A stretch of 32,000 bases of DNA. Source: Haloquadratum walsbyi C23. Lineage in GTDB: Archaea; Halobacteriota; Halobacteria; Halobacteriales; Haloferacaceae. Positions 12,652-30,129 of the stretch are shown piece after piece. The stretch lies in NCBI RefSeq assembly GCF_000237865.1, contig NC_017459.1, forward strand, positions 1,290,001 to 1,322,000, read 5' to 3'. Every line of letters begins with the position of its first letter. The stretch's first letter is position 1. The position numbers were made by a program, and so were the translations under genes. Under the pieces are notes generated by a model. It had not been told where the DNA came from. It did not search any database and saw only the letters and a program-made list of their open reading frames with translations.

Positions 12652-13080
12652 TCACTCATCTCTGCCAGTTGTCGAAGACTTGTTGATAATATCTTTGCTT
12701 ATGCTGCTGAATAGATTGCCCGGTCCCGTATACTGGCTATAAAGTTGATTGACACCACCATTGGCGAACTCCCTAGCCACTTCGTATATACCAGCGCCAT
12801 CTTTGAGCATTTCTGAATCTTCAACCTCCTTTACTGCGATAGACTTGAGGATCCAGACTTGACTCTCACTAAGAGATCTCCGCTGGAATAGTGCATGTCT
12901 CGAATCTTCAAGCTCTGTTCGCAAACCCTTATTATACCCATAACACGCTGCAAAGACAAACAAATCATTTAGATTCTCACCATGGAATGGAGAGTCTTCA
13001 CTTTCTGTTAGCTCACTAAACATCTGCCGCTTATTCTTAGGGATATAAATATCTCGGGGGGCACCTGAATCATCGACCAT
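12652..13080 (-). CDS. Small helical protein, DndE-like / Dnd-associated-protein-like (tentative)
   Basis: 142 aa. ATG at 13078-13080 overlaps the DndD-like gene by 11 nt. The pattern DLFVFAACYGYNKG...FQRRSLSESQVWILKSIAV...EVAREFANGGVNQL resembles, from memory, small DndE / 'DNA phosphorothioation-associated protein 4'-type proteins found beside DndD homologs. This needs an HMM check. Confidence 0.5.
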   Translation of the reverse strand: MVDDSGAPRDIYIPKNKRQMFSELTESEDSPFHGENLNDLFVFAACYGYNKGLRTELEDSRHALFQRRSLSESQVWILKSIAVKEVEDSEMLKDGAGIYEVAREFANGGVNQLYSQYTGPGNLFSSISKDIINKSSTTGRDE

Positions 13081-15040: not shown

Positions 15041-15237
15041 TAACTGTCACCGCTCTCCATGTATTGTTTAATTAGATTTTTATAATCTTCCTTATACTCA
15101 AAATTATCCTTACCCATATTTCCTCTCTCAATCTTTAATATCTCTTTAATAAATCCTTTCAATTTACTGTCGGAAATCCCGTCAACTTCAGATGTGATCA
15201 ATTCATTGACTTCTTCTGAATCCATCAATATATGCAT
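15040..15237 (-). CDS. 65-aa K/E-rich micro-protein, translationally coupled to the DndD-like ATPase
   Basis: Its stop TAA overlaps the downstream ATG by one base (TAATG, 15038-15042). No recognisable domain. The start could instead be the Met at aa 5. Confidence 0.45.
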   Translation of the reverse strand: MHILMDSEEVNELITSEVDGISDSKLKGFIKEILKIERGNMGKDNFEYKEDYKNLIKQYMESGDS

Positions 15238-15307
15238 ATCCGACCATCTACTTTAATTTGTGCGTAAATTATCAGATACCACATAATAAATATCAATTTC
15301 TGGACTC

Positions 15308-17350
15308 TTATAACTGAAATTCACGCTTAATATCTTGCAATTTCAACCGAGCCCTTGTTTCATTGAGTGCAGTTTCGGCAAATTCTTCAAACCGTTCCAA
15401 TTCTCGTTCGAGAATCCCTCTCTCTGAGGCGCCAAGTTCAGAATCAGATTCCACAGCCGGGACGACTATCATATCATATATACTCGCTTTCTCTTTCCCA
15501 CTCTCTGGGTGCTGTCTTAATACCCGGCCTCGGCGCTGGACAAACTCCTTAGGATTACGATTATTTGCCATCAGGATGGCCTGCCGCGTGGAGGGCACAT
15601 CAACCCCTTCATCAAGACATTTCATCGCAACAAGAGCCTCATAACGTCCGTCTGCAAAGGCAGAGAGTAGTTTCTGACGTTCCTCGTCATCTTCCTCTGC
15701 TGTAAAACGATGTTGTACGATACCCCGGTTAGTCATTCGCTGTTGTACTTCATCTATTTGCTGGTAATTTGTATACACAAGAAGGTGGTCAATATCTATC
15801 TCATCAAGTATTTTCTCAATTTCACTATATTTTTGCTTTGCACTTTTCAGTATATTTGCTCGTTTTGTGAGCAACCTTTCCCGAGTTTCTTCGACTGTGT
15901 CATCATCGCTGTCGCCTAAACGTGCCAATTTATGTGAAATTTTCTTGTAGCGAGCGAGCTCTTCCCCATCCATCTCCACTATCCGTGGATAATACTCATA
16001 CGGTGTCAGATACTTTGGAATTGCATCGGCTAATGTATATTGAAAGACAATGTCATCAAAGTAGTTTGACAGAAATTCTGTCCCCTCTTCATCATAGTAA
16101 CGTTCAGGCGTCGCAGATAGCCCTAATCGATAATTAAACTGTGGAACTAAGCCCTTACGCCGAATCTCAGCACCGAGATTATGCACCTCATCAGCTATAA
16201 TGAGACTATCAAACGGGATTGATTTGAGTTGATTACGAAAGAAGTCTGTCGATCCGGTCTGATGGGTGGTAATAATTATTTCTCTATCTGTAAACCCTAA
16301 TTCCAAACCATCAATTGTTGTCTGTAGTGCTGACTTCCAATCAGAGCAGTGCGACCCATATAGTAATTTATATGAAGTATAGTCGAAATCATCTAAACTA
16401 TCTGCCCATTGCTTCGCCAGATGCGTCATAGGAACGGTTATAACGGCGAGCATTGGATCATCTTGATATTCATACTCTCGCAGTATATCACGCATAGCAC
16501 CAATAGCGGTGTATGTCTTTCCAGTCCCAGTGGCCATCTTGAAGAGACCGTGGCGGCCATTATTATGCCAGTTATTAACAGCAGTCTGCTGATAATCACG
16601 AAGTGATATTTTACTCACAGTATGATTGGTCTCTATATTATCCGGGGGTGTATATGGGCGTTCGTCTGTTGTTCTTAATTGCTTGATATCTTGCTCTATG
16701 CTCTCAGGAGGTGTAATAGTCGTTATATTTTTCTTCTCGTTATTCCATAAATCGTCAAATCGACGCTCATGAATGTCCACAGCCTCTGCTTCACGATTGC
16801 CCATCCAGTCACAGTCAATCGTGTATGCCTCATAATTCTCAAACGCGTGCTGGCTATCATTTTGAGATCCATGAAAAGCAATACGGTGACCTTCCGTATC
16901 CTGAGCAATTCCAAACTTGTCATGAAACTGACCACGCAGCGATCCATGAGGTATTGCAAATTTGAGTTCAAGGAGTCCATCAGCAATCATCCAAGCAACT
17001 GCGTTGCGAGTTTCGCTATGAAGTTCCTCCTCAAGGGAGCTTATTGATGATTCTAGTGCTGACTTTAATACTTCGTCAGAACGAGCAACTCCTCCCTTCT
17101 TGATTGCCTCCCAGTCTTTCTCTGAGAGGATTGGACTTGTAATCCATCTCGCAACACCTCCATTTTCGACGAGATTTATTACTCCCCGACTGGCTGACTC
17201 AAGCCATCCAGTTGTGAAGTAGCCAACTCCGCGCTTGTACTCGATGGCATGAGTAAGCATTGGAACATAAAACTCTGAGATAAAGTTGTTTTCTGAAGTC
17301 TCAATCACACGTGGCCAGTCGATACTGGAAAAATCAGCCGAAGGTGTCAT
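15308..17350 (-). CDS. Fusion protein: N-terminal single-HKD phospholipase-D-family nuclease domain + SF2 (ResIII/ERCC3-type DExH) helicase
   Basis: 680 aa. HKD motif is FHDKFGIAQDTEGHRIAFHGSQND (nt 16859-16924). Helicase motifs: I MATGTGKT, II IIADEVH, III LGLSATPER, VI QRRGRVLR. Confidence 0.9.
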   Translation of the reverse strand: MTPSADFSSIDWPRVIETSENNFISEFYVPMLTHAIEYKRGVGYFTTGWLESASRGVINLVENGGVARWITSPILSEKDWEAIKKGGVARSDEVLKSALESSISSLEEELHSETRNAVAWMIADGLLELKFAIPHGSLRGQFHDKFGIAQDTEGHRIAFHGSQNDSQHAFENYEAYTIDCDWMGNREAEAVDIHERRFDDLWNNEKKNITTITPPESIEQDIKQLRTTDERPYTPPDNIETNHTVSKISLRDYQQTAVNNWHNNGRHGLFKMATGTGKTYTAIGAMRDILREYEYQDDPMLAVITVPMTHLAKQWADSLDDFDYTSYKLLYGSHCSDWKSALQTTIDGLELGFTDREIIITTHQTGSTDFFRNQLKSIPFDSLIIADEVHNLGAEIRRKGLVPQFNYRLGLSATPERYYDEEGTEFLSNYFDDIVFQYTLADAIPKYLTPYEYYPRIVEMDGEELARYKKISHKLARLGDSDDDTVEETRERLLTKRANILKSAKQKYSEIEKILDEIDIDHLLVYTNYQQIDEVQQRMTNRGIVQHRFTAEEDDEERQKLLSAFADGRYEALVAMKCLDEGVDVPSTRQAILMANNRNPKEFVQRRGRVLRQHPESGKEKASIYDMIVVPAVESDSELGASERGILERELERFEEFAETALNETRARLKLQDIKREFQL

Positions 17351-17614
17351 TAGAGTGTGTTGGAACTAGCTACGGTATAACTGCTCGGGCGTGAGACCCT
17401 GATAACTTGCCTGTCGAGATATAGTGGTCTCTATCCGGACATGAACTGGTAGAGCAATGGAAGATACGGAAAATTGATTTGAATACCATATCAATCTTAT
17501 CTCACATATTAGATTGAGTAGATAATGTAGGAAAAGATGAGGCATAGTATTATGACTGACAAACAAATAACGTATAAGATAAGATAATGTGGCGGATTCA
17601 TTTGATCAACATAT
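17351..17614. promoter_or_regulatory. Divergent intergenic control region between module A and module B
   Basis: A 264-bp AT-rich gap separates two divergently transcribed ATGs (17350 minus, 17615 plus). A TATA-like stretch tataagataagataa (17573-17587) lies about 30-40 nt upstream of ATG 17615. There is a 6-bp inverted repeat attgat/atcaat near 17473-17495. Promoter positions are inferred, not demonstrated. Confidence 0.35.
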
Positions 17615-20600
17615 ATGACACAACCAATGGGTGAGACTGATATTCCAACATTACAAGATGCATGGGATCCTCGAGAAGATGTTCTCCAGGGTAAAATTCG
17701 AGATGAGAGTCTTGCTGCTGATGCACACGAAGTTGCATATGGGAATAACGTGCCGGATGTATATGATGATACAGAGACGTTCTTCGATTTAACATATCCA
17801 ACATCTGGTGTCACGGGTGTTATCGAAGCGGTTGCTCAACGTGTGATTGCGCATTATCGTGGTGAGTTCCCGGAAGAAAATGGGACTATCACGCTTGACA
17901 CGTCATTTGGGGGAGGAAAGACGCACTCCCAAATTGCCGCATACCATCTTGCTGAACATAGTGACGAAATTCCTGATCTAACGCGATACACACAAAGTGA
18001 CGAAACAGCTCATGAGTATCGCGCTCTCGAAAATAATAAATCAGTACTGACGTCTGTTTTTGTCGGGACAAAGTACGCGCCGAAACCGGTCAAGCCAAAA
18101 CAAGTCCGGCAAGGCGAGCATACCCCAGAAATACAGACAATCTGGGGACATATCGCCTATCAATTGTATGGTGTTGAAGGATATCAGGTAGTGAGTAGTG
18201 GGAATAATCTCGTTGCTCCTGGTGAGCAGTTGCTCAGTAATCTGTTTTCACTGTCTGATGAGGCGGCTGTTATCATTATGGATGAGATTGCGGCTCACTT
18301 ATCTCACGCAACCGCTGTGTCTGTTAATGATGGAAATCTCGCAGAACAGACGCTCAATTTCTTGATGGCGCTGTTCAATTATGCGTCAAACAATAGTGAT
18401 GTGACGGTGATCATGAGTGTTGCAGCTGACGCATTCGAAGATTTCGCGACGATTTTCGAACGCGACCTTTCTTACGATGATGAGGTGATGGATGCCGATG
18501 TTTCCATCCCGATTGCAAAAGAGACCATTCAGGAATTTCAGAATATTGAGGAGCGTGTCGCGAATAAAATCACTCCGGTTGAGGACAGTAATGTTGCAGA
18601 CGTCCTGCGAAATCGGTTATTCAAAAATAACATCGAGACTGGATTGCGTGAGGATATCGCTCAACGATATTACGACTTCTATGATGCCGATAGTAGTTCA
18701 TTCCCAGATGAAGCCTCACAGCCGGAAGCACGCGAACGAATTGAGCAAACATATCCGTTTCACCCAACAGTCGTCGACACGCTAACGAAGCAGATTGATG
18801 CCGTTCCATCATTTCAGAAGGCTCGTGGAGCACTCAAGTTACTTGCCCCAGCCGTCATGCGATTATGGACTGATGAAGGTCAGGGTCCACTGACAGCAGA
18901 TCGTGAGCTGATTCGTCTGTATGATTTACATCCACAGGATGAGCGCACGAGCAAGATGCTGAAGAGTATCTTTGGTGATATTGAGATGGACTTTGAGCCT
19001 GCGGTGAAGGATGACATATACAATACGGATCCGAATGATACACCAAATGCCCTGTATGAGGATAAATATTGGATCAATCGAGGGCAGCCACCACTCGGAA
19101 CCCGAGTTGTAACGACGACAATTTGGAAATCACTCGTAAAAGGTGCAGGAAGCAAAGGAACGAGTCGTGATTACATTAGATACGCGAGCGCGAAGCCTGG
19201 TGAGACGATTGATCACTACAATAGCGCCATCGGGAATCTCCTTGGTGAGAGCGATGAGTCAGCATGTTTCTACTTACATGGTGAGAATAACCAACAATTG
19301 AAATTCAAGACGATTGTCACAGTCGAGAAAGCGATTAATCAGGCGAATCCGCGCACAAGTCGTGTTGATAATCTGCTTGATGAGACGTTATACAATGCCG
19401 CACTTGGTGGATCCTCAATGACAATCTATGAAAACCCACAGGCTGTGCATGAGGTTGACGATACGATTGAGACGCTCGGACAGCTTGTGGTTGTTGAGCC
19501 GTCGACACTCACGATTAGTGAGCCAGATGATATTACAGAAACTGTTGTCACAAAAATTTATGAGAGGTCCGCAAGCTCCAAGCACGGAAACAAGAAGCCG
19601 CGAACGTATAAGAACAATCTAATTTTTCTCGTGCCGGGTATCAGGATTTCGCGCGCTCGGAGCAAGGCAGGTCGCCTCGCTTCGGTTCGCGTTGTACAGG
19701 ATAATCCAGATGATTTTGGGTTGCAGGATGCGCAGTTAGATGAACTCCCAACAAAGCGAGATGAAGCGCGTGGTGATCTTGAGAACTTGGTTAAGAACGC
19801 GTATTCACATGTATATATCCCGAGCAATCCGTCGCCAGACCAACCACATGAAGGACTTGCACATTACAATATCACCGTTACTGACAGTACACTTATTAAC
19901 GCAGTTATCGCCAAATTGGAGGATTCTGGAGAAGTTATTACAAATAATGAGCCAGCGTACAGCCCGAACTGGTTAGAAAATAACCTCTGGATGGCTGTTG
20001 GCGATTCAATGACAACAGTTGAGCTGAAACAACAGATTGGAAAGCAGCGCAGTGCGGAGATATTGCTTGACCCGCGTCCACTACAGAAAACAATCAGGCG
20101 GGCTATTAGAGAGTCCGACAGCAAATTCGCCTACTGGAACCATCACCACGAGCGTGGGTATGTGGATCCAAGTGCATTTGAGGAAATATTTGATGAGCGT
20201 AATGAGACGGTCACATTCGATGAGGCGCATAATCTTGTCGCCGCAGAAGAGCTTGAGGACGTGGGTATTGACAGCTCAGAAGAAGTATATGAATCGACTG
20301 AAACGCTGATAGAGAGTGTCGCCGTTACATGGCAGTGCTCTGATTGTGGTGATTACTTGGACTCAACACGCGAGTATGCTGAGCACTCATGTCAGATAGA
20401 AATTGAGTGCGGACAATGTCCTGACACCTTCTCAACTCAACAAGAGTATGAACAGCACTTACCATGTGGTACAAATTACGACTGTAGTAACTGCGGGCGG
20501 ACGTTCAATACAGAAGAGTCACTCACCGAGCACCAACCGTGTCCATGGCCGCAAACAGTAGTAGGGAAGACGGATAGTCCAGCGGTTGTCACTGAAGCTG

Positions 20601-21067
20601 TCGATACGATTACCGCAGAGATTGAGGATAAGGTGACCCAAATCAAACACAACTTCAACAGTTCAACACATGAAATCAAGCAGTCATTGGACGGACTGAC
20701 TCTCAAACTACAGGGAGATGACGCGTGGAAGAAGGGTGAGTGGATTGCCAAACAGATGCCAGAGCAAGATGGACTTCAGAATGTTGCTGTCGAACTTGAG
20801 TATGAGGCACGATATGATGACAGTCATGTTGAGACTCACTTCGATGGTACTGGCAAAATGTTTGCAGACACACTCAAACATACAAACAAACCGAGTGGGT
20901 CACCAGATGATCAGTATATTGAAATCTTGATCAAGGCTGACACATCACTTGAATTAAATCGGCTTGATATTCTTGAGGATATTATCCCTGGTGCGACGAC
21001 TATCGAAATGAGTGTGAGAACAGCTCTTGAATTGACCGAAGATGAGAAACAAGAGATGACTCCATAA
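17615..21067 (+). CDS. DUF499-type P-loop ATPase (PbeA-like) with a C-terminal triple C2HC zinc-finger insert
   Basis: 1150 aa. The N-terminal pattern ...ESLAADAHEVAYGN..PDVYDD.ETFFDLTYPTSG... is followed by Walker A TSFGGGKTHS and Walker B AVIIMDEIAAH, which I recognise as typical of the DUF499 family. Three CxxC-x12-H-x(1-2)-C units lie at nt 20330-20542. Confidence 0.8.
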   Translation: MTQPMGETDIPTLQDAWDPREDVLQGKIRDESLAADAHEVAYGNNVPDVYDDTETFFDLTYPTSGVTGVIEAVAQRVIAHYRGEFPEENGTITLDTSFGGGKTHSQIAAYHLAEHSDEIPDLTRYTQSDETAHEYRALENNKSVLTSVFVGTKYAPKPVKPKQVRQGEHTPEIQTIWGHIAYQLYGVEGYQVVSSGNNLVAPGEQLLSNLFSLSDEAAVIIMDEIAAHLSHATAVSVNDGNLAEQTLNFLMALFNYASNNSDVTVIMSVAADAFEDFATIFERDLSYDDEVMDADVSIPIAKETIQEFQNIEERVANKITPVEDSNVADVLRNRLFKNNIETGLREDIAQRYYDFYDADSSSFPDEASQPEARERIEQTYPFHPTVVDTLTKQIDAVPSFQKARGALKLLAPAVMRLWTDEGQGPLTADRELIRLYDLHPQDERTSKMLKSIFGDIEMDFEPAVKDDIYNTDPNDTPNALYEDKYWINRGQPPLGTRVVTTTIWKSLVKGAGSKGTSRDYIRYASAKPGETIDHYNSAIGNLLGESDESACFYLHGENNQQLKFKTIVTVEKAINQANPRTSRVDNLLDETLYNAALGGSSMTIYENPQAVHEVDDTIETLGQLVVVEPSTLTISEPDDITETVVTKIYERSASSKHGNKKPRTYKNNLIFLVPGIRISRARSKAGRLASVRVVQDNPDDFGLQDAQLDELPTKRDEARGDLENLVKNAYSHVYIPSNPSPDQPHEGLAHYNITVTDSTLINAVIAKLEDSGEVITNNEPAYSPNWLENNLWMAVGDSMTTVELKQQIGKQRSAEILLDPRPLQKTIRRAIRESDSKFAYWNHHHERGYVDPSAFEEIFDERNETVTFDEAHNLVAAEELEDVGIDSSEEVYESTETLIESVAVTWQCSDCGDYLDSTREYAEHSCQIEIECGQCPDTFSTQQEYEQHLPCGTNYDCSNCGRTFNTEESLTEHQPCPWPQTVVGKTDSPAVVTEAVDTITAEIEDKVTQIKHNFNSSTHEIKQSLDGLTLKLQGDDAWKKGEWIAKQMPEQDGLQNVAVELEYEARYDDSHVETHFDGTGKMFADTLKHTNKPSGSPDDQYIEILIKADTSLELNRLDILEDIIPGATTIEMSVRTALELTEDEKQEMTP

Positions 21068-21071
21068 CTGC

Positions 21072-21698
21072 ATGAGCGGAACACAATACAATTCAGAGCC
21101 ATTCGCATTTACTGCAGGTCGATATGGTGATCGACCGGTTTTCATATTGACACGGCGGTGGAAGCAGAAAGGACCAGAGGTGACACTGTATGAGCTTGCG
21201 CCAGATAATATCGCACAGACGCGTAGGGAGCGATTTGATGATATGTCATCGTCGGCAAGTCTGACAATTCACGAACTCCCTGATATCATCGCAGACGGTC
21301 AGACACCGAATGATATCAAAAGTGGTCACGGTGACGGGACACATGACTGGTCGAACTGGCAAGCGTTGAAGATTGTAACGCTCGGTGGTGAACGAAACAA
21401 GATCGCGATTAGTTCGCTTGTGAGACCAGTACTCACTTCTGGGGAATATGATACGGATTCGGTCTGTGTCGGGAGTGACGGCTCGCTTGCAGTATCAGAG
21501 TCGGTCGGCATTCGGTTGTCAATTGGATTTCGAGCGTTGCGCCCAGTCAGAAAGCAGAATCGACTTCAGGCGATTGCTGATGGGGTGAGTAATATGACAC
21601 TTGGTGAGTGTTACTATTGGCATGCCAAAATGCGGTCGCCAACGGTTCCGAGTGGTGCAAAGGCACTTCGAATACTTCTCAGTAGTCACATTAACTGA
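21072..21698 (+). CDS. Small conserved-slot protein (position of DUF3780/PbeB in DUF499-DUF1156-helicase clusters)
   Basis: 208 aa. Starts 4 nt after the upstream stop and ends 2 nt before the next ATG. I recognise no motif, so the assignment rests on gene order only. Confidence 0.5.
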   Translation: MSGTQYNSEPFAFTAGRYGDRPVFILTRRWKQKGPEVTLYELAPDNIAQTRRERFDDMSSSASLTIHELPDIIADGQTPNDIKSGHGDGTHDWSNWQALKIVTLGGERNKIAISSLVRPVLTSGEYDTDSVCVGSDGSLAVSESVGIRLSIGFRALRPVRKQNRLQAIADGVSNMTLGECYYWHAKMRSPTVPSGAKALRILLSSHIN

Positions 21699-21700
21699 TC

Positions 21701-24553
21701 ATGGCATACGATACCTCAGACACAGAGAGTACCGAAAGGGAAACACAACAAGCAAAAGATACTGTTCCAAGCACGGTTGCGATTGAAGATGACTTGCCAC
21801 TCATGGCAATTGATATTGAAAATGAAAAGGATATCATGGCAAACCGAGGGCACGCCAGCAGGAGGTTTTCAAAATGGTTTGCCGCCCGACCAATCCCAGC
21901 TGTGCGACTTGCAATACTCGGGTCTGTATATCCAGAACGTCAGATAACTGATGACGAACTACTAAAATTAATGCAGATTGGACCTAGCGAAATTGACTCA
22001 AATATAGCTCAGTATGTGAGACAAAAATACACCGAAGAGAAGGATAGATACGATACATTAGACGATCATTATAATTATCCGAACCCAAATAGCCAGACCC
22101 CCTCTAAATCCCAGATTAAAGAAAATAAACAACATGTCAAAGAGTACTGGGGTGGAGAGTTGCCTACAATTCTTGATCCAACCGCTGGTCGAGGAACAAT
22201 TCCATTTGAGGCGATGCGATACGGACTACCAGCGATATCAAATGAGCTTGATCCGGTCCCATTTACTATTAGTAAGATTACATTAGAGCTTGCACCAGAG
22301 GTCGGGTCTGTTGCTGAATCATATGATCGTTGGACAAAGGAGATAATTGAACGGACGAAAGACAGAATCAGTCAGTATTATCCAACAAAGGAATCTGGTC
22401 GTCAGATACTGAATTATGCGATGACGTATATCATTGATTGTGACTCCTGTATGGGGCGACTCCCGTTAATAAACAATTGGCGATTGAATGACGATGCAGC
22501 CGGTGGAGACGTGATTACGCCAACATATCAGGATGGGAATGTATCATACAACCATGCACGGAGAGAAGAGACACCAGAGTTTGACCCGTCAGATGCACCT
22601 GTCGCCCGTGGTGGAGACGCTGAATGTCCACACTGTGGTGTTACAACAGATGCAGCACGAATCAGAGAAAAATTCCAAAATAATGAGTTTGAGTACAGTG
22701 TCTTTGGGGTCAGTTATGAGAGTGAGACTGGCGAATATGAATATCGTGCCGGCGATGAAATAGATCTTAGAGGCATAAACAAAGCCAGTGAGCGTATTGA
22801 GTCTGATTTTGAGTTGATGGACTTCTTTGTTGAAGAATACGCTCCGAAACAGTGTGATAGAGTAAAAAACTATGGGATAGATCAGTGGCGAGACTTATTC
22901 ACACCGCGGCAGCTGGTCACTCATTACGAGCTATTTGAAGTAATTAATGAAGTAAAGAATGGAATACGTGAATCATATGCGAGTAAAAAAGCAAAGCTGA
23001 TTATTACGCTGATAACACAGGCAATTAATCAGCAGGTTCTATTTAATAATAGACTAGCTAAGTGGTTTCCTCAACATGGAACTGGTCATGAGACATTTGC
23101 TAGTCAGAGTTACAGTATGAAGAGAATGTTTGTTGATAATAACATAGTAGCTGAAAGGAAGGGTTTAAAAAGACGGTTTAAACATGTAATTGATAATTAT
23201 GAGGACTTAGCATCTCAAGTATCCCAAGTAGATTCAGACATTGATATTTATAATACTGATGCGACCTCCTTATCTGGGGAAGTAAGCGCCAATGCTGTTC
23301 AGGTTGCAGTCATCGATCCACCATATTTTGATAGTGTTATGTATGGTGAACTATCTGATTTCATGATGATCAGTCATAGAGAAGTGCTTGATGACATATT
23401 TCCTGACGCGATGCAGAATCTAAGCAACGACGAGCAGATGGTTGTCAACAATGTCCGGCATGATAACCCAGAAGAATTCTATGAATCAATGATGCGGGAC
23501 ATGTTTGCAGAATTGGGAGAGATTCTCGTTGAAAATGGTATATTGACGCTCATGTTCACCGACAGAGAGACGAAAGCATGGAATACAATTCTGAAGACGC
23601 TTATTCAGTCTGACTTTACAATCACTGCCGCACACCCAATCAAGACAGAGGCGAGCGACAAAGCCGGTATGCACGACAAAGCCCGTGTTGAAAGTTCTAT
23701 CTTTGTTACAGCACGCAACACGCCAAATGAAACAGATACGTCTGAATGGAGGGAGATAAGAGATACCATTGAGTCTATCGCTCGGAAGGAAGCACAGCGG
23801 CTACTCTCTGTTGAGACTATCAGTAAAATAGATACATCAATCGAAGCATTTGGAGCTGCACTGGAAGCGTACTCAGATGCATATCCAGTTGAGGATAAGT
23901 ACGGTGACACGGTCTATCCGGGTCAGGTGCTCACGACAGTTCGAAACGAGGTATACAGTGTCATTGCAAACGATGAGTTGTCAACCAAGACTGACCGACT
24001 GGATGGTGTTTCGCGATGGTACATCCTTGCCAATGTCCTCTATGATGATGCTGATATTCCATTTGATGAGGCGAATCAGCTTGGTATCGGTGCCGATATT
24101 GATATCAACGAGATCAAGAGACCAACAAAAATTTGGTCAAAATCAGGCGGTAATGTAAGTCTGAACAATCACAGTGATCGTGTACAAGATATTGTTAAGC
24201 TGCGCGATAACAGTGCTGACAATCCATCAACCCGAAAGTACCCCGTTAATCCGACGGCTGACAGCTTCACATACACGATTGACGCTGTTCATGCTGCACT
24301 CCATATATATAAACAAGAAGGACAGAGAGCAACTCGCGACTGGCTCGCACAGCGTGAATTCAAGAGTAATCAGCAATTTAAAAAAGCAATCAAAGCGCTA
24401 CTTGAGGCGGTGCCTGTGGACAGTCGAACGCGAGAGATACTTCAAGATCTCACCGCTGGTGAAACAGGTGATTATCTTGATATTAGTGTCGAAGAGCTCA
24501 GTATTGGTAATTCGAGCAGTGCTAGGCAGAGCGGTATTGAGGAGTATAAGTAA
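21701..24553 (+). CDS. DUF1156-type Zn-ribbon-containing N6-adenine (DPPY) DNA methyltransferase (PbeC-like / DrmMI-like)
   Basis: 950 aa. N-terminal DUF1156-like signature FSKWFAARPIPAVRLAIL. SAM-binding motif I is ILDPTAGRGTIPFEA. Cys pairs CDSC (aa 246-249) and CPHC (aa 309-312) form the Zn ribbon. Catalytic motif IV is VIDPPYFDSV (DPPY at nt 23315-23326). Confidence 0.85.
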   Translation: MAYDTSDTESTERETQQAKDTVPSTVAIEDDLPLMAIDIENEKDIMANRGHASRRFSKWFAARPIPAVRLAILGSVYPERQITDDELLKLMQIGPSEIDSNIAQYVRQKYTEEKDRYDTLDDHYNYPNPNSQTPSKSQIKENKQHVKEYWGGELPTILDPTAGRGTIPFEAMRYGLPAISNELDPVPFTISKITLELAPEVGSVAESYDRWTKEIIERTKDRISQYYPTKESGRQILNYAMTYIIDCDSCMGRLPLINNWRLNDDAAGGDVITPTYQDGNVSYNHARREETPEFDPSDAPVARGGDAECPHCGVTTDAARIREKFQNNEFEYSVFGVSYESETGEYEYRAGDEIDLRGINKASERIESDFELMDFFVEEYAPKQCDRVKNYGIDQWRDLFTPRQLVTHYELFEVINEVKNGIRESYASKKAKLIITLITQAINQQVLFNNRLAKWFPQHGTGHETFASQSYSMKRMFVDNNIVAERKGLKRRFKHVIDNYEDLASQVSQVDSDIDIYNTDATSLSGEVSANAVQVAVIDPPYFDSVMYGELSDFMMISHREVLDDIFPDAMQNLSNDEQMVVNNVRHDNPEEFYESMMRDMFAELGEILVENGILTLMFTDRETKAWNTILKTLIQSDFTITAAHPIKTEASDKAGMHDKARVESSIFVTARNTPNETDTSEWREIRDTIESIARKEAQRLLSVETISKIDTSIEAFGAALEAYSDAYPVEDKYGDTVYPGQVLTTVRNEVYSVIANDELSTKTDRLDGVSRWYILANVLYDDADIPFDEANQLGIGADIDINEIKRPTKIWSKSGGNVSLNNHSDRVQDIVKLRDNSADNPSTRKYPVNPTADSFTYTIDAVHAALHIYKQEGQRATRDWLAQREFKSNQQFKKAIKALLEAVPVDSRTREILQDLTAGETGDYLDISVEELSIGNSSSARQSGIEEYK

Positions 24554-24570
24554 TCAAGAGTGTATTGCTC

Positions 24571-27500
24571 ATGTTTAGCAACAATAGTTGGCAGTTAACA
24601 TATGAAAGCGGAACTGACGATTTATTCACAGATTTTTATGAGCCATTTTTATCTGAGGCAGAACAGTACAATCGTATTGCTGGGTATTTGAGCCTCCGGG
24701 GGCTTGCAGCAGCGCTTGAAGGTGTTGACTCGATGCTTGAGACAGACGGTGAAATTCGTGTGATTACTGGCGCTGACCTGCAACAGCGCGAGAGAGAATA
24801 TCTGTTAACCGATACCGAGGGCACGTTCCCTAACTGGACAAAATCTCAGTTAGCCATCATCGCCGAACTATTTGATCGAGGTGACTTGTCAATCAAAGTT
24901 GCTGATGTCTCACAGCAGACTGGTATGTTTCATTCAAAACTTGGGATTGGGGTTGACGCGAATGATGATGTGCTCACTTTCGAAGGAAGCATCAATGAAA
25001 CACCGAACGGGTGGTTGCGGAGTTATGAGCGGTTCAAAATACACCGATCGTGGAAGTATGTCGAGAGAGAATATGTCGAACGTGATCGGGAGACATTCGA
25101 TATGTTGTGGAACGATAACCACTCATATGTTGATGTGTATGAGTTGAGCGAAGCTGACAAACAAGATATTGCGAGTTGGCAACCCGACGGCGGGCAACAA
25201 CTGCAGAAAGCAAGGGAAACTGTTCGTGAGGGACGACCAGAGAATGCCCCATCAGAATGGGAGCTAGCACGTGCACTATCTGTGAACGGTCAAACTCCAG
25301 GAGGATTGCATCTCGCTGAGGATGTGAGTACAATCACGCCATGGCCACACCAACGGTCGATTTCAGATACTGTTGTGAGCCATTATCCGAGCAATTTCAT
25401 TTTGAGTGATGAGGTTGGACTCGGCAAGACGATTGAGGTCGGGCTGACGCTCTCACGATTAATCCAGACCGGCGATGTTGAGACTGCACTCTTACTTGTT
25501 CCAGCCAGTCTTATGGAACAGTGGCAGCGCGAATTACGTGACAAATTCAATCTGAACGCCTATCGATTCGAGCGACAGAGCGGATATCCTGTCGTTACCG
25601 GGTCATATGGAGATGGAAGCAGCAGTACTGTGACGCTCAGTGGTGATGTGACAGCCTCCGACTGGTCTGATACACCAATTGGTGGGTTTGTTGACAAGCG
25701 TGATCGTCCGACTATTATCATCCAATCGTGGCACCGTGCCCGCATGACTGGTAATCAACAGCATGTCGCCCCACAAACAGACGAGACAGTCTGGGATGCG
25801 ACAGTTGTCGATGAAGCGCATAACGCACGGAATCCGGACACGAAATTTTACAAACTGCTGGGGGATGTGCGAGACAGTTCACGAGCATTGTATGCACTTT
25901 CTGCAACCCCGATGCAGGTTCGGATTGAGGAGTTGCATGACATACTTCGATTGACCGAATTGCCTGATTCTTGGGATGACCGCAAACAGTTGGCGAATTT
26001 CTTCCGAACAAAAATGATCCTCCGTGAGACATTAGCCGAAGGCAGAATTGGCGATTCGTTTGGCGATATTGAGCGAGAGATTGAACGAACGTTCCAGCGA
26101 AAGTATGCAGACCGATTTGACGAATCAAGACACAGTCATATTGAAAATGACCTCTCACTCGAAGTAGTCAGAGCACGATTTGAGCAGTTCGCAAGAATGA
26201 TTGCCGATCACGCCGCGTCATATCCGGGCTACACTGACTATATTGACCAACTTGCTGATACTATTGAGACTGATGAAGGCATGCGAGTACGGTTCTCACT
26301 GCGCAAGCAATTGAAGCGATTGATTGATTCTGATGAGCGTCGGTTTGTTGATGATCCTGCGGAGATTCTGTATGATCTCGACGACAAACTCGGGTGGAGA
26401 CTTGTCGTTCGGATGTCCGAAGATATGAATCCAGTTCAGTCGCGTATGTTTCGAAACACTCGGGAGGTGTTACGCGATGCGAAAGAGGACGGACGTCTAG
26501 ACGCGACAGTGCCACGTCGTGATGTTTCGACAGAGCATGTCCCGCTTGATAATGAGATAGAAGAGTTATTTGACGAGATCGAATCATACATCAAAAACAC
26601 GTATCAGCGGTCGACAGAAGTGCTTGATGACCAGCAGAAAGCCGCTCTTGGATTTGTGATGACAATCTATCGCAAGCGATTAGCGAGCAGTTTTGCGGCT
26701 ATTCAGAGCACATTACGGAGCCGATACAATTCACTTGGTGACAAACTCCCTGATGATGCTGACGAGCTTGAGTCACAAGTACGGGGGAGTGAGGCATCAG
26801 AAGCTGACGTGAGGGCGATTGTGGATGACGAAACAATCAATCAGTATCAGGTGAGTAAACGAAAGATCATACAGTACGAGCAGTCCCAAATTGAGCAGTT
26901 TATTACGAAACTCCGATCACAAAAGACCGATCCGAAGGTAAGCAAGTTATCGAGCGCGATTGATGAATATCGCGAGGAGGGATATCACGATATCGTTATT
27001 TTCACACAGTATACTGACACGATGGATGATATCGCAAATGAGCTGAAGTTGCTCAACGATGTTGGCATATTCAGTGGTGATGGCGGAAGCGTGTACAGAA
27101 ATCACGAGTGGGTTGACGTCGGAAAAGAAGGAGTCAAAAAATCATTTGCAGATGACGACGGAATTGGGATTTTGGTCTGCACAGATAGTGCAAGTGAGGG
27201 ACTCAACCTTCAGACAGGCGAGCTACTGATCAATTATGATCTGCCGTGGAATCCGATGCAGGTTGAGCAACGAATCGGTCGGATTGATCGAATCGGGCAG
27301 GAAAATGAGGTGGTGAAGATTGTGAATTATGCGTACGAAGATGAGATTGACGCTCAAATATATGAGAGTCTTGATGATAAACTCGATATTTTTGATCAGG
27401 TCGTCGGTGATACGCGACCTGTGCTTGCCGGAATCGAGTCCGAAATTCGCGATATCGCACTGAAAGAGGATACAGAAACGATTGAGCAACTGACTAAGGA

Positions 27501-28197
27501 AAAAGCACGGGATGCTGATGAGATGAGCAATACGATGGCCGCTGTTGGACTCACGGATGTTGAGTATGATACGGAAGCTGCACTTGTTGGATGGGGCGAG
27601 CGGACGCATTCAGCACTTAACAGAATTGGAAGCGATGCCAGACGGTTTGATCCGGTGTTGACGCCGTCTATTGTTGAGTATCTATTTACCCAAAGTTCGT
27701 CACTCGAAACTGCTGGTTGGTCGTTTCAGAGCCTGAGGAATCATGAGCGTGGGCATGAGTTTCCTGAGGCAGTACGTGAGGCATATCTGCTGTCAATTCC
27801 TGATGAGTCAGAGGTTGATTATCTGTTGAATCAGCAGGTTGACTCGGACGAGCAAACCGCACAGGAGGTGTTTGCTGAGCAGGATGCTCTTGTCGTGACG
27901 TTCTCAACAGAACTTGTGAATGAGCGTGGTTCATTGCGGTTGTTATTACCAGGTGATCCGTTGTTCGCACATCTCCTCCAGATAATCGACGATAATCAGG
28001 CGATGGCTGAGGAGAATGTGACGCTCATTTCATCCAATGAGATAGATGAGAAATTGGAGACCAATCGGATATGTGATGTGCAGGAACTAATCGCACCAGT
28101 GATTAATAATCGGAATCTAACGCCAATGGATATCAATTGTTATGAAAATGAGAAATCAGCAAAGGAAGCTGTGAAGAGGTTTGTATATCTAGACTGA
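24571..28197 (+). CDS. Fusion protein: N-terminal single-HKD PLD-family domain + SNF2-family helicase (PbeD-like; DrmC+DrmD-like content)
   Basis: HKD motif MFHSKLGIGVD...FEGSINE (H codon at 24931-24933). SNF2 motifs: LSDEVGLGKTIE, LLLVPASLMEQW, VVDEAHNARN, LYALSATPMQ, VCTDSASEGLNLQ, DLPWNPMQVEQRIGRIDRIGQ. The track ORF starts at TTG 24565; ATG 24571 (MFSNNSWQ) is preferred. Confidence 0.9.
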   Translation: MFSNNSWQLTYESGTDDLFTDFYEPFLSEAEQYNRIAGYLSLRGLAAALEGVDSMLETDGEIRVITGADLQQREREYLLTDTEGTFPNWTKSQLAIIAELFDRGDLSIKVADVSQQTGMFHSKLGIGVDANDDVLTFEGSINETPNGWLRSYERFKIHRSWKYVEREYVERDRETFDMLWNDNHSYVDVYELSEADKQDIASWQPDGGQQLQKARETVREGRPENAPSEWELARALSVNGQTPGGLHLAEDVSTITPWPHQRSISDTVVSHYPSNFILSDEVGLGKTIEVGLTLSRLIQTGDVETALLLVPASLMEQWQRELRDKFNLNAYRFERQSGYPVVTGSYGDGSSSTVTLSGDVTASDWSDTPIGGFVDKRDRPTIIIQSWHRARMTGNQQHVAPQTDETVWDATVVDEAHNARNPDTKFYKLLGDVRDSSRALYALSATPMQVRIEELHDILRLTELPDSWDDRKQLANFFRTKMILRETLAEGRIGDSFGDIEREIERTFQRKYADRFDESRHSHIENDLSLEVVRARFEQFARMIADHAASYPGYTDYIDQLADTIETDEGMRVRFSLRKQLKRLIDSDERRFVDDPAEILYDLDDKLGWRLVVRMSEDMNPVQSRMFRNTREVLRDAKEDGRLDATVPRRDVSTEHVPLDNEIEELFDEIESYIKNTYQRSTEVLDDQQKAALGFVMTIYRKRLASSFAAIQSTLRSRYNSLGDKLPDDADELESQVRGSEASEADVRAIVDDETINQYQVSKRKIIQYEQSQIEQFITKLRSQKTDPKVSKLSSAIDEYREEGYHDIVIFTQYTDTMDDIANELKLLNDVGIFSGDGGSVYRNHEWVDVGKEGVKKSFADDDGIGILVCTDSASEGLNLQTGELLINYDLPWNPMQVEQRIGRIDRIGQENEVVKIVNYAYEDEIDAQIYESLDDKLDIFDQVVGDTRPVLAGIESEIRDIALKEDTETIEQLTKEKARDADEMSNTMAAVGLTDVEYDTEAALVGWGERTHSALNRIGSDARRFDPVLTPSIVEYLFTQSSSLETAGWSFQSLRNHERGHEFPEAVREAYLLSIPDESEVDYLLNQQVDSDEQTAQEVFAEQDALVVTFSTELVNERGSLRLLLPGDPLFAHLLQIIDDNQAMAEENVTLISSNEIDEKLETNRICDVQELIAPVINNRNLTPMDINCYENEKSAKEAVKRFVYLD

Positions 28198-28296: not shown

Positions 28297-30129
28297 CTAC
28301 TGATCACTGAATCCTGCAATAGTCTCATCGTCAAACTCGCCGCCAAAGTACACGGATCGACTGAGATTATTATTAGAATTCGCGCAGGTAATGTTCGAAA
28401 GAAAGAGGCAATCCTCGCACGAGCCATTGTGATCGCGTCGGCAGACAGAATCATACGTGCAAAATGCACTTTCTTCCAATTGATTGAGCACCTCTGGAAA
28501 ACGCTCTTCAAACAGGGAGAAGATTGAGCCTAGTGTAAAGTTCGTGTCCGGCCGCTTGTAGATAATGAAACTCATAGCTCTTGGAAGTATATGCTCAACG
28601 AGACTATCGCGCCCATATCCAGAGAGTGCTCCAATCGAGTCAGTGAATAGGTGTGAGAGGGTGTGAAGTAGTGTGAATGCGTGTCGAGCGGGTGTTCGTT
28701 CCGCTGGAAGAGAGTCAAAACGGTTTGGAGCAGTCATCTTCTCAATGAACCAACGGTCGAGATTGTTGACAGTTGTTGACTGAACAATATTGTTAGAGAA
28801 GAGCCAATCTAACACTGCCTGCTTGTCGAGCGAGATCATAACTGCCTCCGCGTCCATCGTCCGAGCGAAAATTTGCGTCTCTGCCCACTGCCCACTAGAG
28901 AATGCATTTAATCGCGGTCCCATTTCGTCCTCAGTGTCGCCACCTGGAATTGGCGTCCCTCGAGTATATCCATATGTAACGGTCGTCACGGGGAAATTTT
29001 TAATCAGCCGAATTTCCGAAAGGTTCTGATTAGAACGAAGATCTGTATAATATTCAAGTTCATCTTCTGAGAGATGACTTTTTGTATCGACATCTTCGAG
29101 TAGTGAACTGAATGTGTATGTCTCAATACGGTCATTGTCATCGTATTCATCGCTGGTCACCGACAAATACTCAAAAAGCTCTTCGCTGAGACGCAGTCTC
29201 TTCGTCTTGTCGAACTCCGCCTGTAAGAACTGTTTTACTTCACTACGATGATCAGTCGCATCTGTAGTAAGCCGCTCTTTGGCCAGCTCAAGCGCGTGTT
29301 CCCGGTTTGATGCCTCATCATTCGCCATTAATTTCATAGCCTCCTGCAACAGTTCATCCTCGCTTGGACTGTCATTACCGCTGTTACGGAGTAAATAATC
29401 AGATATAATCTGCGCCTGATACTCCTGATTATCCTGTAGTGCATTCAATTTCTGATGAGCGTTAATCAGCGTCTGCGTCTGTGGATAGAATGTGCTGGAT
29501 GCTGAGTGAGGGAGCGTTTTGATATCTTCCATATCACAGCTAGGACTGAAACAAGTTGATCCTCCATTGAACCGGGTCGTGTACGAGCAACTAGAATTTG
29601 TACACCGCCAATATGCGTCCTCGAATCGGACAGTTGGGTTTCGATACTCCATTCCTGCGCCACAATGCTCTGGCACGTATATATCCTGAATGCCCCCACA
29701 TCGACAGTACGAAATCATACGCATTTGATCTCGGTCAGAAAGACCAGTTCCACACCGCTCACATGGGACTGTCGTTTCGGCATCCGGGAAATCACGTATC
29801 TCTGTTGGAGTGAACTGGTTTACAGTTCCACAGTTTGCGCATTTGAAACTTCTTGGGAATACCTCAAAATTCGCAGCCCCCGGCGTGACAACTTCCGCAG
29901 TCTCAAATCCAAAGTCAAGTTGGCTACTATTATACCATCGATTTACATGTCGTTGCACACGTCTGATGATATATTCATCCGGCAACTCATCGGCAGCTGC
30001 ATTCCCTGAATCGTCTCTGTCCTCATGAAGCCGCGTAATCATACCACTCAAGTCAGATTCAGAGTGATTGAATGTATTCTCTGGAAGAAAGTCGAAAATA
30101 AACTTTGATTTTGAACGTTCCATCGTCAT
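28297..30129 (-). CDS. DUF1998-domain protein (DrmB-like) with several N-terminal zinc ribbons
   Basis: 610 aa. The C-terminal DUF1998-type module runs HTLSHLF...SFIIYKRPDTN...CTYDSVCRRDHNGSCEDCLFLSNITCANSNNNLSRS. The N-terminal half contains CANCG...CERCG and further Cys clusters. The ATG overlaps the upstream helicase stop (ATGA, 30126-30129). Confidence 0.8.
   Translation of the reverse strand: MTMERSKSKFIFDFLPENTFNHSESDLSGMITRLHEDRDDSGNAAADELPDEYIIRRVQRHVNRWYNSSQLDFGFETAEVVTPGAANFEVFPRSFKCANCGTVNQFTPTEIRDFPDAETTVPCERCGTGLSDRDQMRMISYCRCGGIQDIYVPEHCGAGMEYRNPTVRFEDAYWRCTNSSCSYTTRFNGGSTCFSPSCDMEDIKTLPHSASSTFYPQTQTLINAHQKLNALQDNQEYQAQIISDYLLRNSGNDSPSEDELLQEAMKLMANDEASNREHALELAKERLTTDATDHRSEVKQFLQAEFDKTKRLRLSEELFEYLSVTSDEYDDNDRIETYTFSSLLEDVDTKSHLSEDELEYYTDLRSNQNLSEIRLIKNFPVTTVTYGYTRGTPIPGGDTEDEMGPRLNAFSSGQWAETQIFARTMDAEAVMISLDKQAVLDWLFSNNIVQSTTVNNLDRWFIEKMTAPNRFDSLPAERTPARHAFTLLHTLSHLFTDSIGALSGYGRDSLVEHILPRAMSFIIYKRPDTNFTLGSIFSLFEERFPEVLNQLEESAFCTYDSVCRRDHNGSCEDCLFLSNITCANSNNNLSRSVYFGGEFDDETIAGFSDQ

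What the first reader, a model, noticed from the sequence alone, without database searches (positions are those of the whole stretch)
17615..28197. Four-gene DUF499 ATPase / small protein / DUF1156 methyltransferase / PLD-SNF2 helicase module (PbeABCD- or Hma-like)
Seen in the sequence: four co-directional genes with gaps of 4 nt, 2 nt and about 17 nt. Their motifs are a P-loop ATPase (FGGGKTH, IIMDE), a 208-aa protein, a methyltransferase (DPTAGRGT, DPPY, two Cys pairs) and an SNF2 helicase carrying an N-terminal HKD domain.

From memory, this gene order is the cluster flagged in early defence-island surveys. I believe it was later named pbeABCD (a phosphorothioate-dependent archaeal system), and it overlaps PADLOC's helicase-methylase-ATPase 'Hma' candidate. 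I cannot verify that equivalence here.

This copy carries its own DPPY methyltransferase, and no dndC/dndA is nearby. Self-marking by N6-adenine methylation rather than phosphorothioation is therefore plausible. The mechanism of this family is poorly understood.
Basis: partly seen in the sequence, partly recalled or inferred. Interest (0 to 1): 0.7.

Follow-up and report, generated by a model that had tools for sequence, protein, structure and literature searches.

The report
MANTIS-like methylation defence operon, DUF7680 variant
The four genes are an intact restriction-modification-like defence operon of a salt-loving archaeon, related to the recently characterised MANTIS (Gao_RL) system but from an undescribed sister branch with a different small subunit; it is not the PbeABCD system, which lies next door.

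Summary
Four co-directional intact ORFs sit at the stated coordinates with gaps of 4, 2 and 17 nt, and every quoted motif is present.

[quoted passage not shown] It hits all three PADLOC Hma models.
- It is not PbeABCD. A real pbeABCD operon lies divergently upstream at 12652-17350(-), and DrmA/DrmB lie convergently downstream.
- The closest characterised system is MANTIS (Gao_RL, BR Type-2). It has the same gene order (AAA+ ATPase, small protein, N6-adenine methyltransferase, HKD-helicase) and the same N-terminal PLD effector.
- The small protein is Pfam DUF7680, not DUF3780. All four proteins score far below NCBI's MANTIS-type cut-offs. The ATPase and methyltransferase score higher against Type-1/Hma-like proteins.

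The same four-gene order holds wherever contigs are long enough, in 50 genome loci (49 haloarchaeal) and 26 long metagenome contigs, and also on cyanobacterial, rhizobial and actinobacterial plasmids. The term DUF7680 appears in no searchable paper.

Likely mechanism, inferred from MANTIS: the ATPase and the small protein load the methyltransferase to mark host DNA, and unmarked sites recruit the helicase-nuclease.

Verdict: a new variant of a known kind, of moderate interest.

The parts
17351..17614 (.). 264-bp AT-rich intergenic region shared by the divergent pbeA and the ATPase gene. It presumably holds both promoters.
   Evidence: Sequence read. The promoter assignment is inference only; archaeal promoters are not covered by the scan tool.
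17615..21067 (+). MtsA/HmaC-like DUF499 AAA+ (ORC/Cdc6-type) ATPase, 1150 aa. Walker A is at 17909-17926 and Walker B at 18272-18286. The C-terminal ~300 aa are hypervariable.
   Evidence: Pfam DUF499 3.5e-26. PADLOC HmaC 2.6e-78. NCBIfam DUF499_antiphage 1.5e-39, but 136 bits against a cut-off of 1200. The Walker motifs are invariant in 48-50 homologues. Identity to homologues falls to 8-24% after residue 850.
20336..20554 (+). Three tandem C2HC/C2H2-type zinc fingers inserted in the ATPase C-terminal region.
   Evidence: Translation. Weak Pfam zf-C2H2 hits. Homologues carry between 0 and 3 such fingers.
21072..21698 (+). Small basic DUF7680 protein (208 aa, pI 8.6) in the position that MtsB (DUF3780) holds in MANTIS.
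   Evidence: Pfam DUF7680 2e-29 and no DUF3780 hit even at E<10. pI 8.6 against 4.5-5.3 for neighbouring proteins. AF2 model with pLDDT 80 has no Foldseek match in PDB or BFVD. The gene always lies between the ATPase and the methyltransferase.
21701..24553 (+). MtsC/HmaB-like N6-adenine methyltransferase, 950 aa. Motif I is at 22175-22198. A central target-recognition insert carries an invariant 4-Cys zinc ribbon (22439-22450 and 22625-22636). DPPY is at 23315-23326.
   Evidence: PADLOC HmaB 2.5e-48 and DUF1156_MTase 1e-22. NCBIfam DUF1156_antiphage 2.3e-36, 125 bits against a cut-off of 1000. DPPY and all four Cys are invariant in 45 homologues.
24571..28197 (+). MtsD-like helicase-nuclease. 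It has an N-terminal single-HKD PLD domain (motif at 24928-24957) and a RapA-like SNF2 motor (motif I at 25408-25431, motif II at 25804-25824). An alternative TTG start lies at 24565.
   Evidence: Pfam SNF2-rel_dom 3e-17, Helicase_C 6e-16 and PLDc_2 2.5e-5. NCBIfam phospholipD_antiphage 8e-87, 292 bits against a cut-off of 1100. The best PDB relative is RapA. BLASTP aligns residues 11-459 with residues 6-424 of A. baumannii MtsD. The HKD and helicase motifs are invariant in 42 homologues.

Best explanation
The four genes form a complete, intact restriction-modification-like defence operon of a haloarchaeon. It belongs to the DUF499-centred BREX-related superfamily and has the architecture of MANTIS (Gao_RL, BR Type-2).

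Shown here:
- The order is AAA+ ATPase, small protein, N6-adenine methyltransferase, HKD-SNF2 helicase-nuclease.
- All catalytic motifs are intact and conserved across the lineage.
- The order is conserved in a large lineage that always carries DUF7680 as the small protein.

Inferred from MANTIS biochemistry:
- The ATPase, helped by the basic small protein, uses ATP to load the methyltransferase on a short asymmetric motif. That motif is read by the zinc-ribbon recognition insert, and one strand of host DNA is methylated.
- On incoming DNA, the same recognition complex at unmethylated sites recruits a dimer of the helicase-nuclease.
- The dimer translocates with ATP and cuts with a single PLD active site built from two HKD halves. 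Cutting is most efficient between inverted sites.
- The hypervariable ATPase tail, here three zinc fingers plus a variable domain, probably adds DNA or invader sensing.
For: Domains and motifs.

Conserved gene order:
- All on one strand in every locus long enough to show it, among the 50 genome loci and 4 metagenome contigs and the 26 long metagenome contigs.
- Also on plasmids of Haloferax gibbonsii, Sinorhizobium and Rhodococcus, and on those of Picosynechococcus and Nostoc with a few inserted genes.

Invariant residues: Walker A/B, motif I, DPPY, four Cys, HKD and helicase motifs I/II.

Links to MANTIS:
- Canonical MANTIS on A. baumannii pSSMA17_1 has the same order.
- The window helicase aligns with that MtsD from residue 11, so the alignment includes the HKD domain.
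- The catalytic His lies at about residue 121-123, against H122 in MtsD.
- The small protein is basic in an acidic proteome. This matches the positively charged surface of MtsB.
- ASCH-DUF7680 fusions exist. They parallel the ASCH fusions reported for DUF3780.

Mechanism source: bioRxiv 10.64898/2026.09.23.753747. Classification source: PMC12839542.
Against: - No methylome, phenotype or biochemistry exists for this lineage.
- All four proteins score far below NCBI's MANTIS-type equivalog cut-offs: 136/1200, no hit, 125/1000 and 292/1100.
- DUF3780 is absent. Homology between DUF7680 and DUF3780 is not established (hhalign E about 0.04, probability about 1%).
- The ATPase and methyltransferase score 2-3 times higher against Type-1/Hma-like proteins than against MANTIS. 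In Hma the helicase alone gave defence, and HmaB had no detectable effect on T4.
- MtsD cleavage has not been reconstituted in vitro even for MANTIS, and that work is a preprint.
Confidence: 0.75

Rival explanations
1. It works like Hma (BR Type-1). The helicase-nuclease is an autonomous effector that nicks or cleaves invader DNA, and the methyltransferase, ATPase and small protein are dispensable or only regulatory.
For: PADLOC HmaC, HmaB and HmaA are the named best or near-best hits. The ATPase and methyltransferase score 130-190 bits against Type-1 proteins of Thermus, Gordonia and Rhodobacter, against about 60-73 bits for MANTIS. Crude NJ trees place the DUF7680 clade beside Type-1. In Halomonas, HmaA alone protected against T4, and HmaB over-expression did not change T4 sensitivity.
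Against: The gene order is the reverse of the Type-1 loci examined. The nuclease is an N-terminal HKD, as in MtsD, not a C-terminal PD-(D/E)XK. No NOV_C/DUF3883 or Tudor hit was found. A conserved fourth gene is present. All four genes and their catalytic residues are conserved together.
Confidence: 0.15
2. It is a PbeABCD-type module that depends on phosphorothioate or another modification.
For: PADLOC PbeA models hit residues 5-335 of the helicase. A Pbe operon is adjacent.
Against: The Pbe hit covers only the shared PLD-like N-terminus. There is no PbeC/DndD-like SMC ATPase and no PbeB or PbeD in the module. The genuine pbeABCD is the neighbouring operon. Pbe as published contains no DUF499 or DUF1156 protein. 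None of 76 related loci has PbeC nearby.
Confidence: 0.02
3. It is half of a composite DISARM class-1-like system, supplying the SNF2 DrmD, PLD DrmC and adenine methyltransferase functions to the convergent DrmA/DrmB genes.
For: DrmB (28297-30129) and DrmA (30126 to the window end) lie 100 nt downstream. The helicase hits DrmD models (E 3e-63). DISARM uses PLD, SNF2 and methyltransferase components.
Against: DrmD scores are below the NCBIfam cut-off (226 against 610). No DrmA or DrmB is found within 10 kb in 76 related loci. The closest DrmB relative sits in a DrmE-DrmA-DrmB operon with no DUF499 module. The two units are convergent, not co-transcribed.
Confidence: 0.03
4. It is an inactive remnant in a decaying defence island.
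For: An IS1595 element has split a gene of the adjacent Pbe operon. The stretch 5-9.4 kb of the window has few long ORFs.
Against: The four ORFs are full length relative to homologues: 1097-1135, 205-206, 953-957 and 1199-1209 aa. They have no frameshifts, and every catalytic motif is intact.
Confidence: 0.05

Closest known systems
MANTIS (Gao_RL / Gao_29; DUF499-centred BREX-related Type-2): MtsA-MtsB-MtsC-MtsD
   Same: - Same four-gene order, with tight gene spacing.
- DUF499 ORC/Cdc6-type AAA+ ATPase.
- A roughly 200-aa basic small protein with no structural relatives.
- A DPPY N6-adenine methyltransferase with a central recognition insert.
- A helicase-nuclease with an N-terminal single-HKD PLD domain and a catalytic His near residue 122.
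   Different: - The small protein is Pfam DUF7680, not DUF3780, and homology between the two is unproven.
- Pairwise scores to A. baumannii MANTIS are only 73 (ATPase), 62 (methyltransferase) and 117+74 (helicase) bits.
- All scores are far below the NCBIfam equivalog cut-offs.
- The helicase is about 300 aa longer.
- The ATPase tail carries zinc fingers.
- No MtsR-like repressor gene is present.
Hma (HmaA-HmaB-HmaC; BR Type-1)
   Same: The ATPase, methyltransferase and SNF2 core are homologous and give the highest named PADLOC hits. They are closer in sequence to this module than MANTIS is. Unrelated genes are inserted inside the operon in many relatives.
   Different: Hma runs helicase, methyltransferase, ATPase. 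Its helicase has a C-terminal PD-(D/E)XK nickase and an N-terminal Tudor domain, not an N-terminal HKD. It has no conserved small fourth gene.
Type-3 BREX (BrxC, PglXI, BrxHII) and BR Type-3
   Same: The ATPase, methyltransferase and RapA-like helicase cores are distantly homologous.
   Different: No PglZ, BrxA/BrxB or inactive-STAND gene is present. The helicase carries a nuclease domain.
PbeABCD (phosphorothioate-dependent archaeal defence)
   Same: The only shared feature is a PLD-like N-terminal domain followed by an SF2 helicase, in PbeA and in the module's helicase (27% identity over about 200 aa).
   Different: It has a different ATPase (SMC/DndD-like PbeC), different small proteins and no methyltransferase. 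It is encoded separately at 12652-17350(-) in this window.

Membership tests
DUF499-centred BREX-related (BR) superfamily | DUF499 ORC/Cdc6-type AAA+ ATPase with intact Walker A and B motifs | tested here: met
   Pfam DUF499 scores 91.8 bits against a cut-off of 23. The Walker motifs are present and invariant.
DUF499-centred BREX-related (BR) superfamily | N6-adenine methyltransferase of the DUF1156 / PglXI-like type in the same operon | tested here: met
   NCBIfam DUF1156_antiphage E 2.3e-36. PADLOC HmaB 2.5e-48 and PglXI 9.5e-14. Pfam DUF1156 itself is sub-threshold at 17.5 against 24. DPPY is invariant.
DUF499-centred BREX-related (BR) superfamily | Swi2/Snf2 (RapA-like) helicase component | tested here: met
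   Pfam SNF2-rel_dom and Helicase_C hits. RapA is the top PDB match at 5e-27.
MANTIS / Gao_RL / BR Type-2 | Gene order ATPase, small protein, methyltransferase, helicase-nuclease | tested here: met
   The order is conserved in related loci.
MANTIS / Gao_RL / BR Type-2 | Helicase with an N-terminal HKD/PLD nuclease and no Tudor domain | tested here: met
   The HxK...D motif at residues 123-131 is invariant. PLDc_2 E 2.5e-5. The protein aligns with MtsD from residue 11. The absence of a Tudor domain rests only on the lack of a Pfam hit.
MANTIS / Gao_RL / BR Type-2 | Standalone DUF3780 (MtsB) protein in the core locus | tested here: not met
   No DUF3780 hit even at E<10; the protein is DUF7680. 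Profile-profile comparison of DUF7680 with DUF3780 gives E 0.037-0.046 and probability about 1%. The alignment is collinear and shows shared EE-x-aromatic-aromatic-W...K and R-x-A-L motifs. The protein therefore holds the same position, but homology is unresolved.
MANTIS / Gao_RL / BR Type-2 | Proteins reach NCBI's equivalog cut-offs for the anti-phage DUF499, DUF1156 and PLD families | tested here: not met
   136 against 1200, 125 against 1000 and 292 against 1100 bits.
MANTIS / Gao_RL / BR Type-2 | Hemimethylation of an asymmetric 6-bp site that needs MtsA, MtsB and ATP, and restriction that needs all four proteins | not testable with these tools
   This needs a methylome and genetics.
Hma (PADLOC) / BR Type-1 | HmaA, HmaB and HmaC profile hits | tested here: met
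   E-values of 1e-54, 2.5e-48 and 2.6e-78.
Hma (PADLOC) / BR Type-1 | Helicase with a C-terminal PD-(D/E)XK (NOV_C) nuclease, and gene order helicase, methyltransferase, ATPase | tested here: not met
   No such domain is found in Pfam, and the nuclease is an N-terminal HKD. The order is reversed relative to the Gordonia, Rhodobacter and Mycobacterium loci.
PbeABCD | PbeA helicase, 66-aa PbeB, SMC/DndD-like PbeC and 152-aa PbeD, usually beside dndCDEA | tested here: not met
   Only the helicase N-terminus hits PbeA models, and the module has no PbeC-like protein. The real set lies at 12652-17350(-).
DISARM | DrmA, DrmB and DrmC core with a methyltransferase in one conserved locus | tested here: not met
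   DrmA/DrmB are convergent neighbours and are absent from 76 related loci. DrmD scores are below the cut-off.

The most novel reading that the evidence does not exclude
The DUF7680-bearing systems may be an unrecognised fourth lineage of DUF499-centred BREX-related defence.
- They have the gene order and HKD helicase-nuclease of MANTIS.
- Their ATPase and methyltransferase are nearest to Type-1/Hma.
- Their co-regulator, DUF7680, is unrelated or only very remotely related to MtsB/DUF3780.

This would imply that effector and co-regulator modules were exchanged between BR types. It would also make the enigmatic MtsB function open to comparative study. The haloarchaeal branch adds a roughly 60-aa insert in the small protein and zinc-finger arrays in the ATPase tail.
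Probability: 0.4. Interest if true: 0.5.

Novelty: new variant of a known kind. Interest (0 to 1): 0.35.

Why it matters
Annotation. This lineage is common on haloarchaeal megaplasmids and on cyanobacterial, rhizobial and actinobacterial plasmids. RefSeq annotates it only as DUF499 / hypothetical / DUF1156 / helicase-related. NCBI's MANTIS-type models do not reach their cut-offs on it. Recognising it would improve defence-system annotation, especially in Archaea.

Mechanism. The MANTIS authors call MtsB's role unclear. A second family in the same slot, with ASCH-fused versions, gives a comparative handle on what the co-regulator does. Haloferax offers a genetic system for testing this.

Correction. 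The work also separates PbeABCD from the DUF499/DUF1156 systems, which are easily confused. It shows that both, together with DrmAB, sit side by side in one island.

Tried and rejected
- Exact look-up of the window's DrmB in public assemblies found nothing, so the source genome could not be extended beyond the window.
- A megablast of 25 kb against plasmids matched only the IS element. The host remains unidentified, beyond an acidic proteome at about 45% G+C and haloarchaeal relatives.
- tRNA and Rfam scans found nothing.
- Foldseek of the DUF7680 model against PDB and BFVD gave no match with E<0.001.
- PDB sequence searches found nothing for the methyltransferase and only a weak zinc-finger match for the ATPase.
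- The AF2 model of DUF3780 was too poor (pLDDT 52) for a topology comparison.
- hhalign and hmmsearch of DUF7680 against DUF3780, with small and then large profiles, stayed non-significant.
- The supplements of PMC12839542 held as text do not list taxa or DUF3780 sequences. I could not tell whether that survey had already counted DUF7680 loci under Type-2.
- Rejected readings: PbeABCD identity, a DISARM composite, and a decayed remnant (see the rival explanations).


Full report
**Observation**

The window carries four co-directional ORFs on the + strand:
- 17615-21067 (1150 aa)
- 21072-21698 (208 aa)
- 21701-24553 (950 aa)
- 24565-28197, with a TTG start

The other gaps are 4 nt and 2 nt. Every quoted motif is present at verified coordinates: GGGKTH, IIMDE, DPTAGRGT, DPPY, the two Cys pairs, the HKD motif and helicase motifs I and II. 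The proteins are strongly acidic (pI 4.5-4.7) at about 45% G+C, which fits a haloarchaeal host.

**What the proteins are**

- ATPase. Pfam places it in DUF499 (E 3.5e-26). PADLOC gives HmaC 2.6e-78.
- Small protein. It is DUF7680 (E 2e-29), with no DUF3780 signal even at E<10.
- Methyltransferase. It is sub-threshold for Pfam DUF1156. It matches NCBIfam DUF1156_antiphage (E 2e-36) and PADLOC HmaB (2.5e-48).
- Helicase. It has SNF2 and Helicase_C domains and a weak PLDc_2 hit. It matches NCBIfam phospholipD_antiphage (E 8e-87). RapA is its best solved relative.
- All NCBIfam scores are far below the equivalog cut-offs (136/1200, 125/1000, 292/1100). This is therefore a distant relative of the canonical family.

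**The neighbours settle the Pbe question**

- Divergently upstream lies a genuine pbeABCD operon:
  - PbeA at 15308-17350 (PADLOC 4.6e-224; TIGR04095)
  - a 65-aa PbeB candidate at 15040-15237
  - PbeC at 13070-15040 (4.6e-234; DndD-like)
  - PbeD at 12652-13080 (TIGR04062)
- This matches the published description of Pbe, which has no DUF499 or DUF1156 component (PMC6459918).
- Convergently downstream lie DrmB and a DrmA that runs off the window.
- Neither neighbour is linked to the module elsewhere. In the 50 genome loci and 26 long metagenome contigs that carry the same module, no PbeC, DrmA or DrmB homologue lies within 10 kb.
- The closest DrmB relative sits in a separate DrmE-DrmA-DrmB operon.

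**Literature**

  - Type-1 is Hma: a Tudor-Snf2 helicase with a C-terminal restriction-type nuclease.
  - Type-2 has DUF499, DUF3780, a DUF1156 methyltransferase and an HKD-Snf2 helicase.
  - Type-3 adds PglZ and an inactive STAND protein and lacks a nuclease fusion.
- A September 2026 preprint (10.64898/2026.09.23.753747) renames Type-2/Gao_RL as MANTIS. Its findings:
  - MtsC hemimethylates an asymmetric 6-bp site.
  - MtsC does so only when loaded by the AAA+ ATPase MtsA, with the small dimeric, positively charged MtsB and ATP.
  - Restriction needs all four proteins and both ATPase activities.
  - MtsC determines the target for the dimeric PLD-helicase MtsD, whose catalytic residue is H122.
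  - Inverted unmodified sites are restricted best.
  - Deleting mtsC is not toxic, but a catalytically dead MtsC is toxic.
- For Hma, HmaA alone protected against T4 through a nickase domain (PMC11232893).

**The lineage**

- The DUF7680 protein has 29 close homologues in the word-indexed protein search.
- A profile search of 1.84 billion representatives found 345 clusters with E<1e-3.
- The typical form is about 146 aa. The haloarchaeal form carries an insert of about 60 aa.
- Proteins of about 300 aa are ASCH-DUF7680 fusions.
- A scan of representative genomes returned 50 loci. All but one mislabelled MAG are Halobacteria.
- A metagenome scan found at least 559 loci.
- Wherever the contig is long enough, the order ATPase, DUF7680, methyltransferase, HKD-helicase holds on one strand.
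- The module is also found on plasmids of Haloferax gibbonsii, Haloarcula marismortui, Picosynechococcus, Nostoc, Sinorhizobium and Rhodococcus. There the small gene is annotated "hypothetical".
- In about 20 haloarchaeal loci and many metagenomic ones, 0.7-6 kb of unrelated genes separate the methyltransferase from the helicase. This recalls the insertion hotspot described for Hma.
- Invariant across 42-50 haloarchaeal homologues: Walker A/B, motif I, DPPY, the four Cys of the recognition insert, the HKD motif and helicase motifs I/II.
- By contrast, the last 300 residues of the ATPase are hypervariable, and the number of zinc fingers ranges from 0 to 3.

**Relation to the known types**

- Canonical MANTIS on A. 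baumannii pSSMA17_1 has the same order. Its proteins nevertheless score only 73 (ATPase), 62 (methyltransferase) and 117+74 (helicase) bits against the window's proteins.
- The bacterial DUF7680-type loci score 170-380 bits.
- The helicase aligns with MtsD from residue 11, so the HKD domain is shared. Against Type-1 helicases only the motor aligns.
- The ATPase and methyltransferase score 130-190 bits against Type-1 proteins, 2-3 times more than against MANTIS.
- Crude NJ trees place a monophyletic DUF7680 clade beside Type-1.
- Type-1 loci run helicase, methyltransferase, ATPase, which is the opposite order.
- The lineage thus has MANTIS architecture with Type-1-like core sequences. I could not resolve whether the published survey already counts it under Type-2.
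- The term DUF7680 occurs in no searchable paper.

**Is DUF7680 a diverged DUF3780?**

- Profile-profile comparison is not significant (E 0.037-0.046, probability about 1%).
- The alignment is nonetheless collinear over 141 columns. It pairs EEaYYWfaKc with PEERWWLYSKT and RALRiLLAee with WRKALYCALSDG, in equivalent C-terminal helices.
- The DUF7680 model (pLDDT 80) has a four- to five-stranded sheet and six helices, with no match in PDB or BFVD. MtsB likewise has no structural relatives.
- The DUF3780 model was too poor to compare.
- The protein is basic (pI 8.6) in an acidic proteome. This points to nucleic-acid binding and fits MtsB's positive surface.
- Verdict: same position and probably the same role. 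Homology is unresolved.

**Mechanism**

- Shown: an intact operon with four conserved enzymatic or binding components.
- Inferred from MANTIS:
  - The ATPase and the DUF7680 protein load and activate the methyltransferase, which marks host DNA on one strand of a short asymmetric motif.
  - The same recognition complex on unmarked sites recruits a dimer of the HKD-helicase.
  - The dimer translocates and cleaves with one composite PLD site.
- The main rival is Hma-like autonomous action of the helicase-nuclease (confidence about 0.15).
- The Pbe, DISARM-composite and decayed-remnant readings are disfavoured.

**Verdict**

The family assignment is right at superfamily level. The PbeABCD equation is wrong, and the Hma link is partial. 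The module is a member of a widespread but unnamed DUF7680-bearing sister branch of MANTIS, which makes it a new variant of a known kind. Interest is moderate (0.35). The finding does not surprise a specialist. It does offer a comparative handle on the unexplained MtsB function and exposes a gap in annotation.

Noticed in passing
window 12652-17350 (-), with 11823-12659 and 10540-10884: A complete pbeA, pbeB (65 aa, 15040-15237), pbeC, pbeD operon lies divergent to the module, with no dnd genes found in the window. Its fifth gene is split into fragments at 11907-12587 and 10543-10869. The closest plasmid relatives (Halobaculum rubrum, Halococcus dombrowskii) carry pbeABCD, two hypothetical genes and two DNA methyltransferases, with no dnd genes. 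This suggests a methylation-linked Pbe lineage.
   Followed up: partly
window 10865-11869: An ISNph2-type IS1595 element, with its transposase at 10895-11779(-), is 94% identical to a copy on a Natronomonas pharaonis plasmid. It has imperfect terminal inverted repeats and is inserted in the fifth gene of the Pbe operon.
   Followed up: partly
window 28297-31967 (-): DrmB (610 aa) and DrmA (runs off the window end) are convergent with the helicase gene, 100 nt away. No DrmC or methyltransferase lies downstream of DrmB. A relative on a Haloplanus rubicundus plasmid is a stand-alone DrmE-DrmA-DrmB operon.
   Followed up: partly
window 9442-10539 (+): A 365-aa ORF with no Pfam or PADLOC hit is homologous (24% identity) to the sixth gene of the Halobaculum Pbe-like operon. 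Here it is on the opposite strand to the Pbe genes.
   Followed up: partly
window 7954-8301 (+), within 5000-9400: A 115-aa ORF carries a DpnI_C 'Dam-replacing HTH' domain (E 3e-15). It lies in a 4-kb stretch with few long ORFs and may be a decayed restriction gene.
   Followed up: no
L022, L025, L028-L030, L033-L044, L047-L049 and metagenome loci L064, L099, L114: In many DUF7680-type loci, 0.7-6 kb of other genes sit between the methyltransferase and the helicase. On the Picosynechococcus plasmid these include VapBC, PIN and HTH genes. This recalls the insertion hotspot reported for Hma.
   Followed up: no
P0059, P0060, P0073, P0076 (about 300 aa); P0075 (505 aa): DUF7680 occurs fused to an N-terminal ASCH domain, a PUA-like reader of modified bases. 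In one case it is fused to a region with a weak Peptidase_C25 hit.
   Followed up: partly
DUF3780 hits P0178-P0297: Canonical MtsB/DUF3780 is unusually conserved, with over 73% identity from E. coli and Acinetobacter to Bacillus and Desulfobacterota among the best 120 hits. This points to recent wide horizontal spread of canonical MANTIS, in contrast to the deep divergence within the DUF7680 clade.
   Followed up: no
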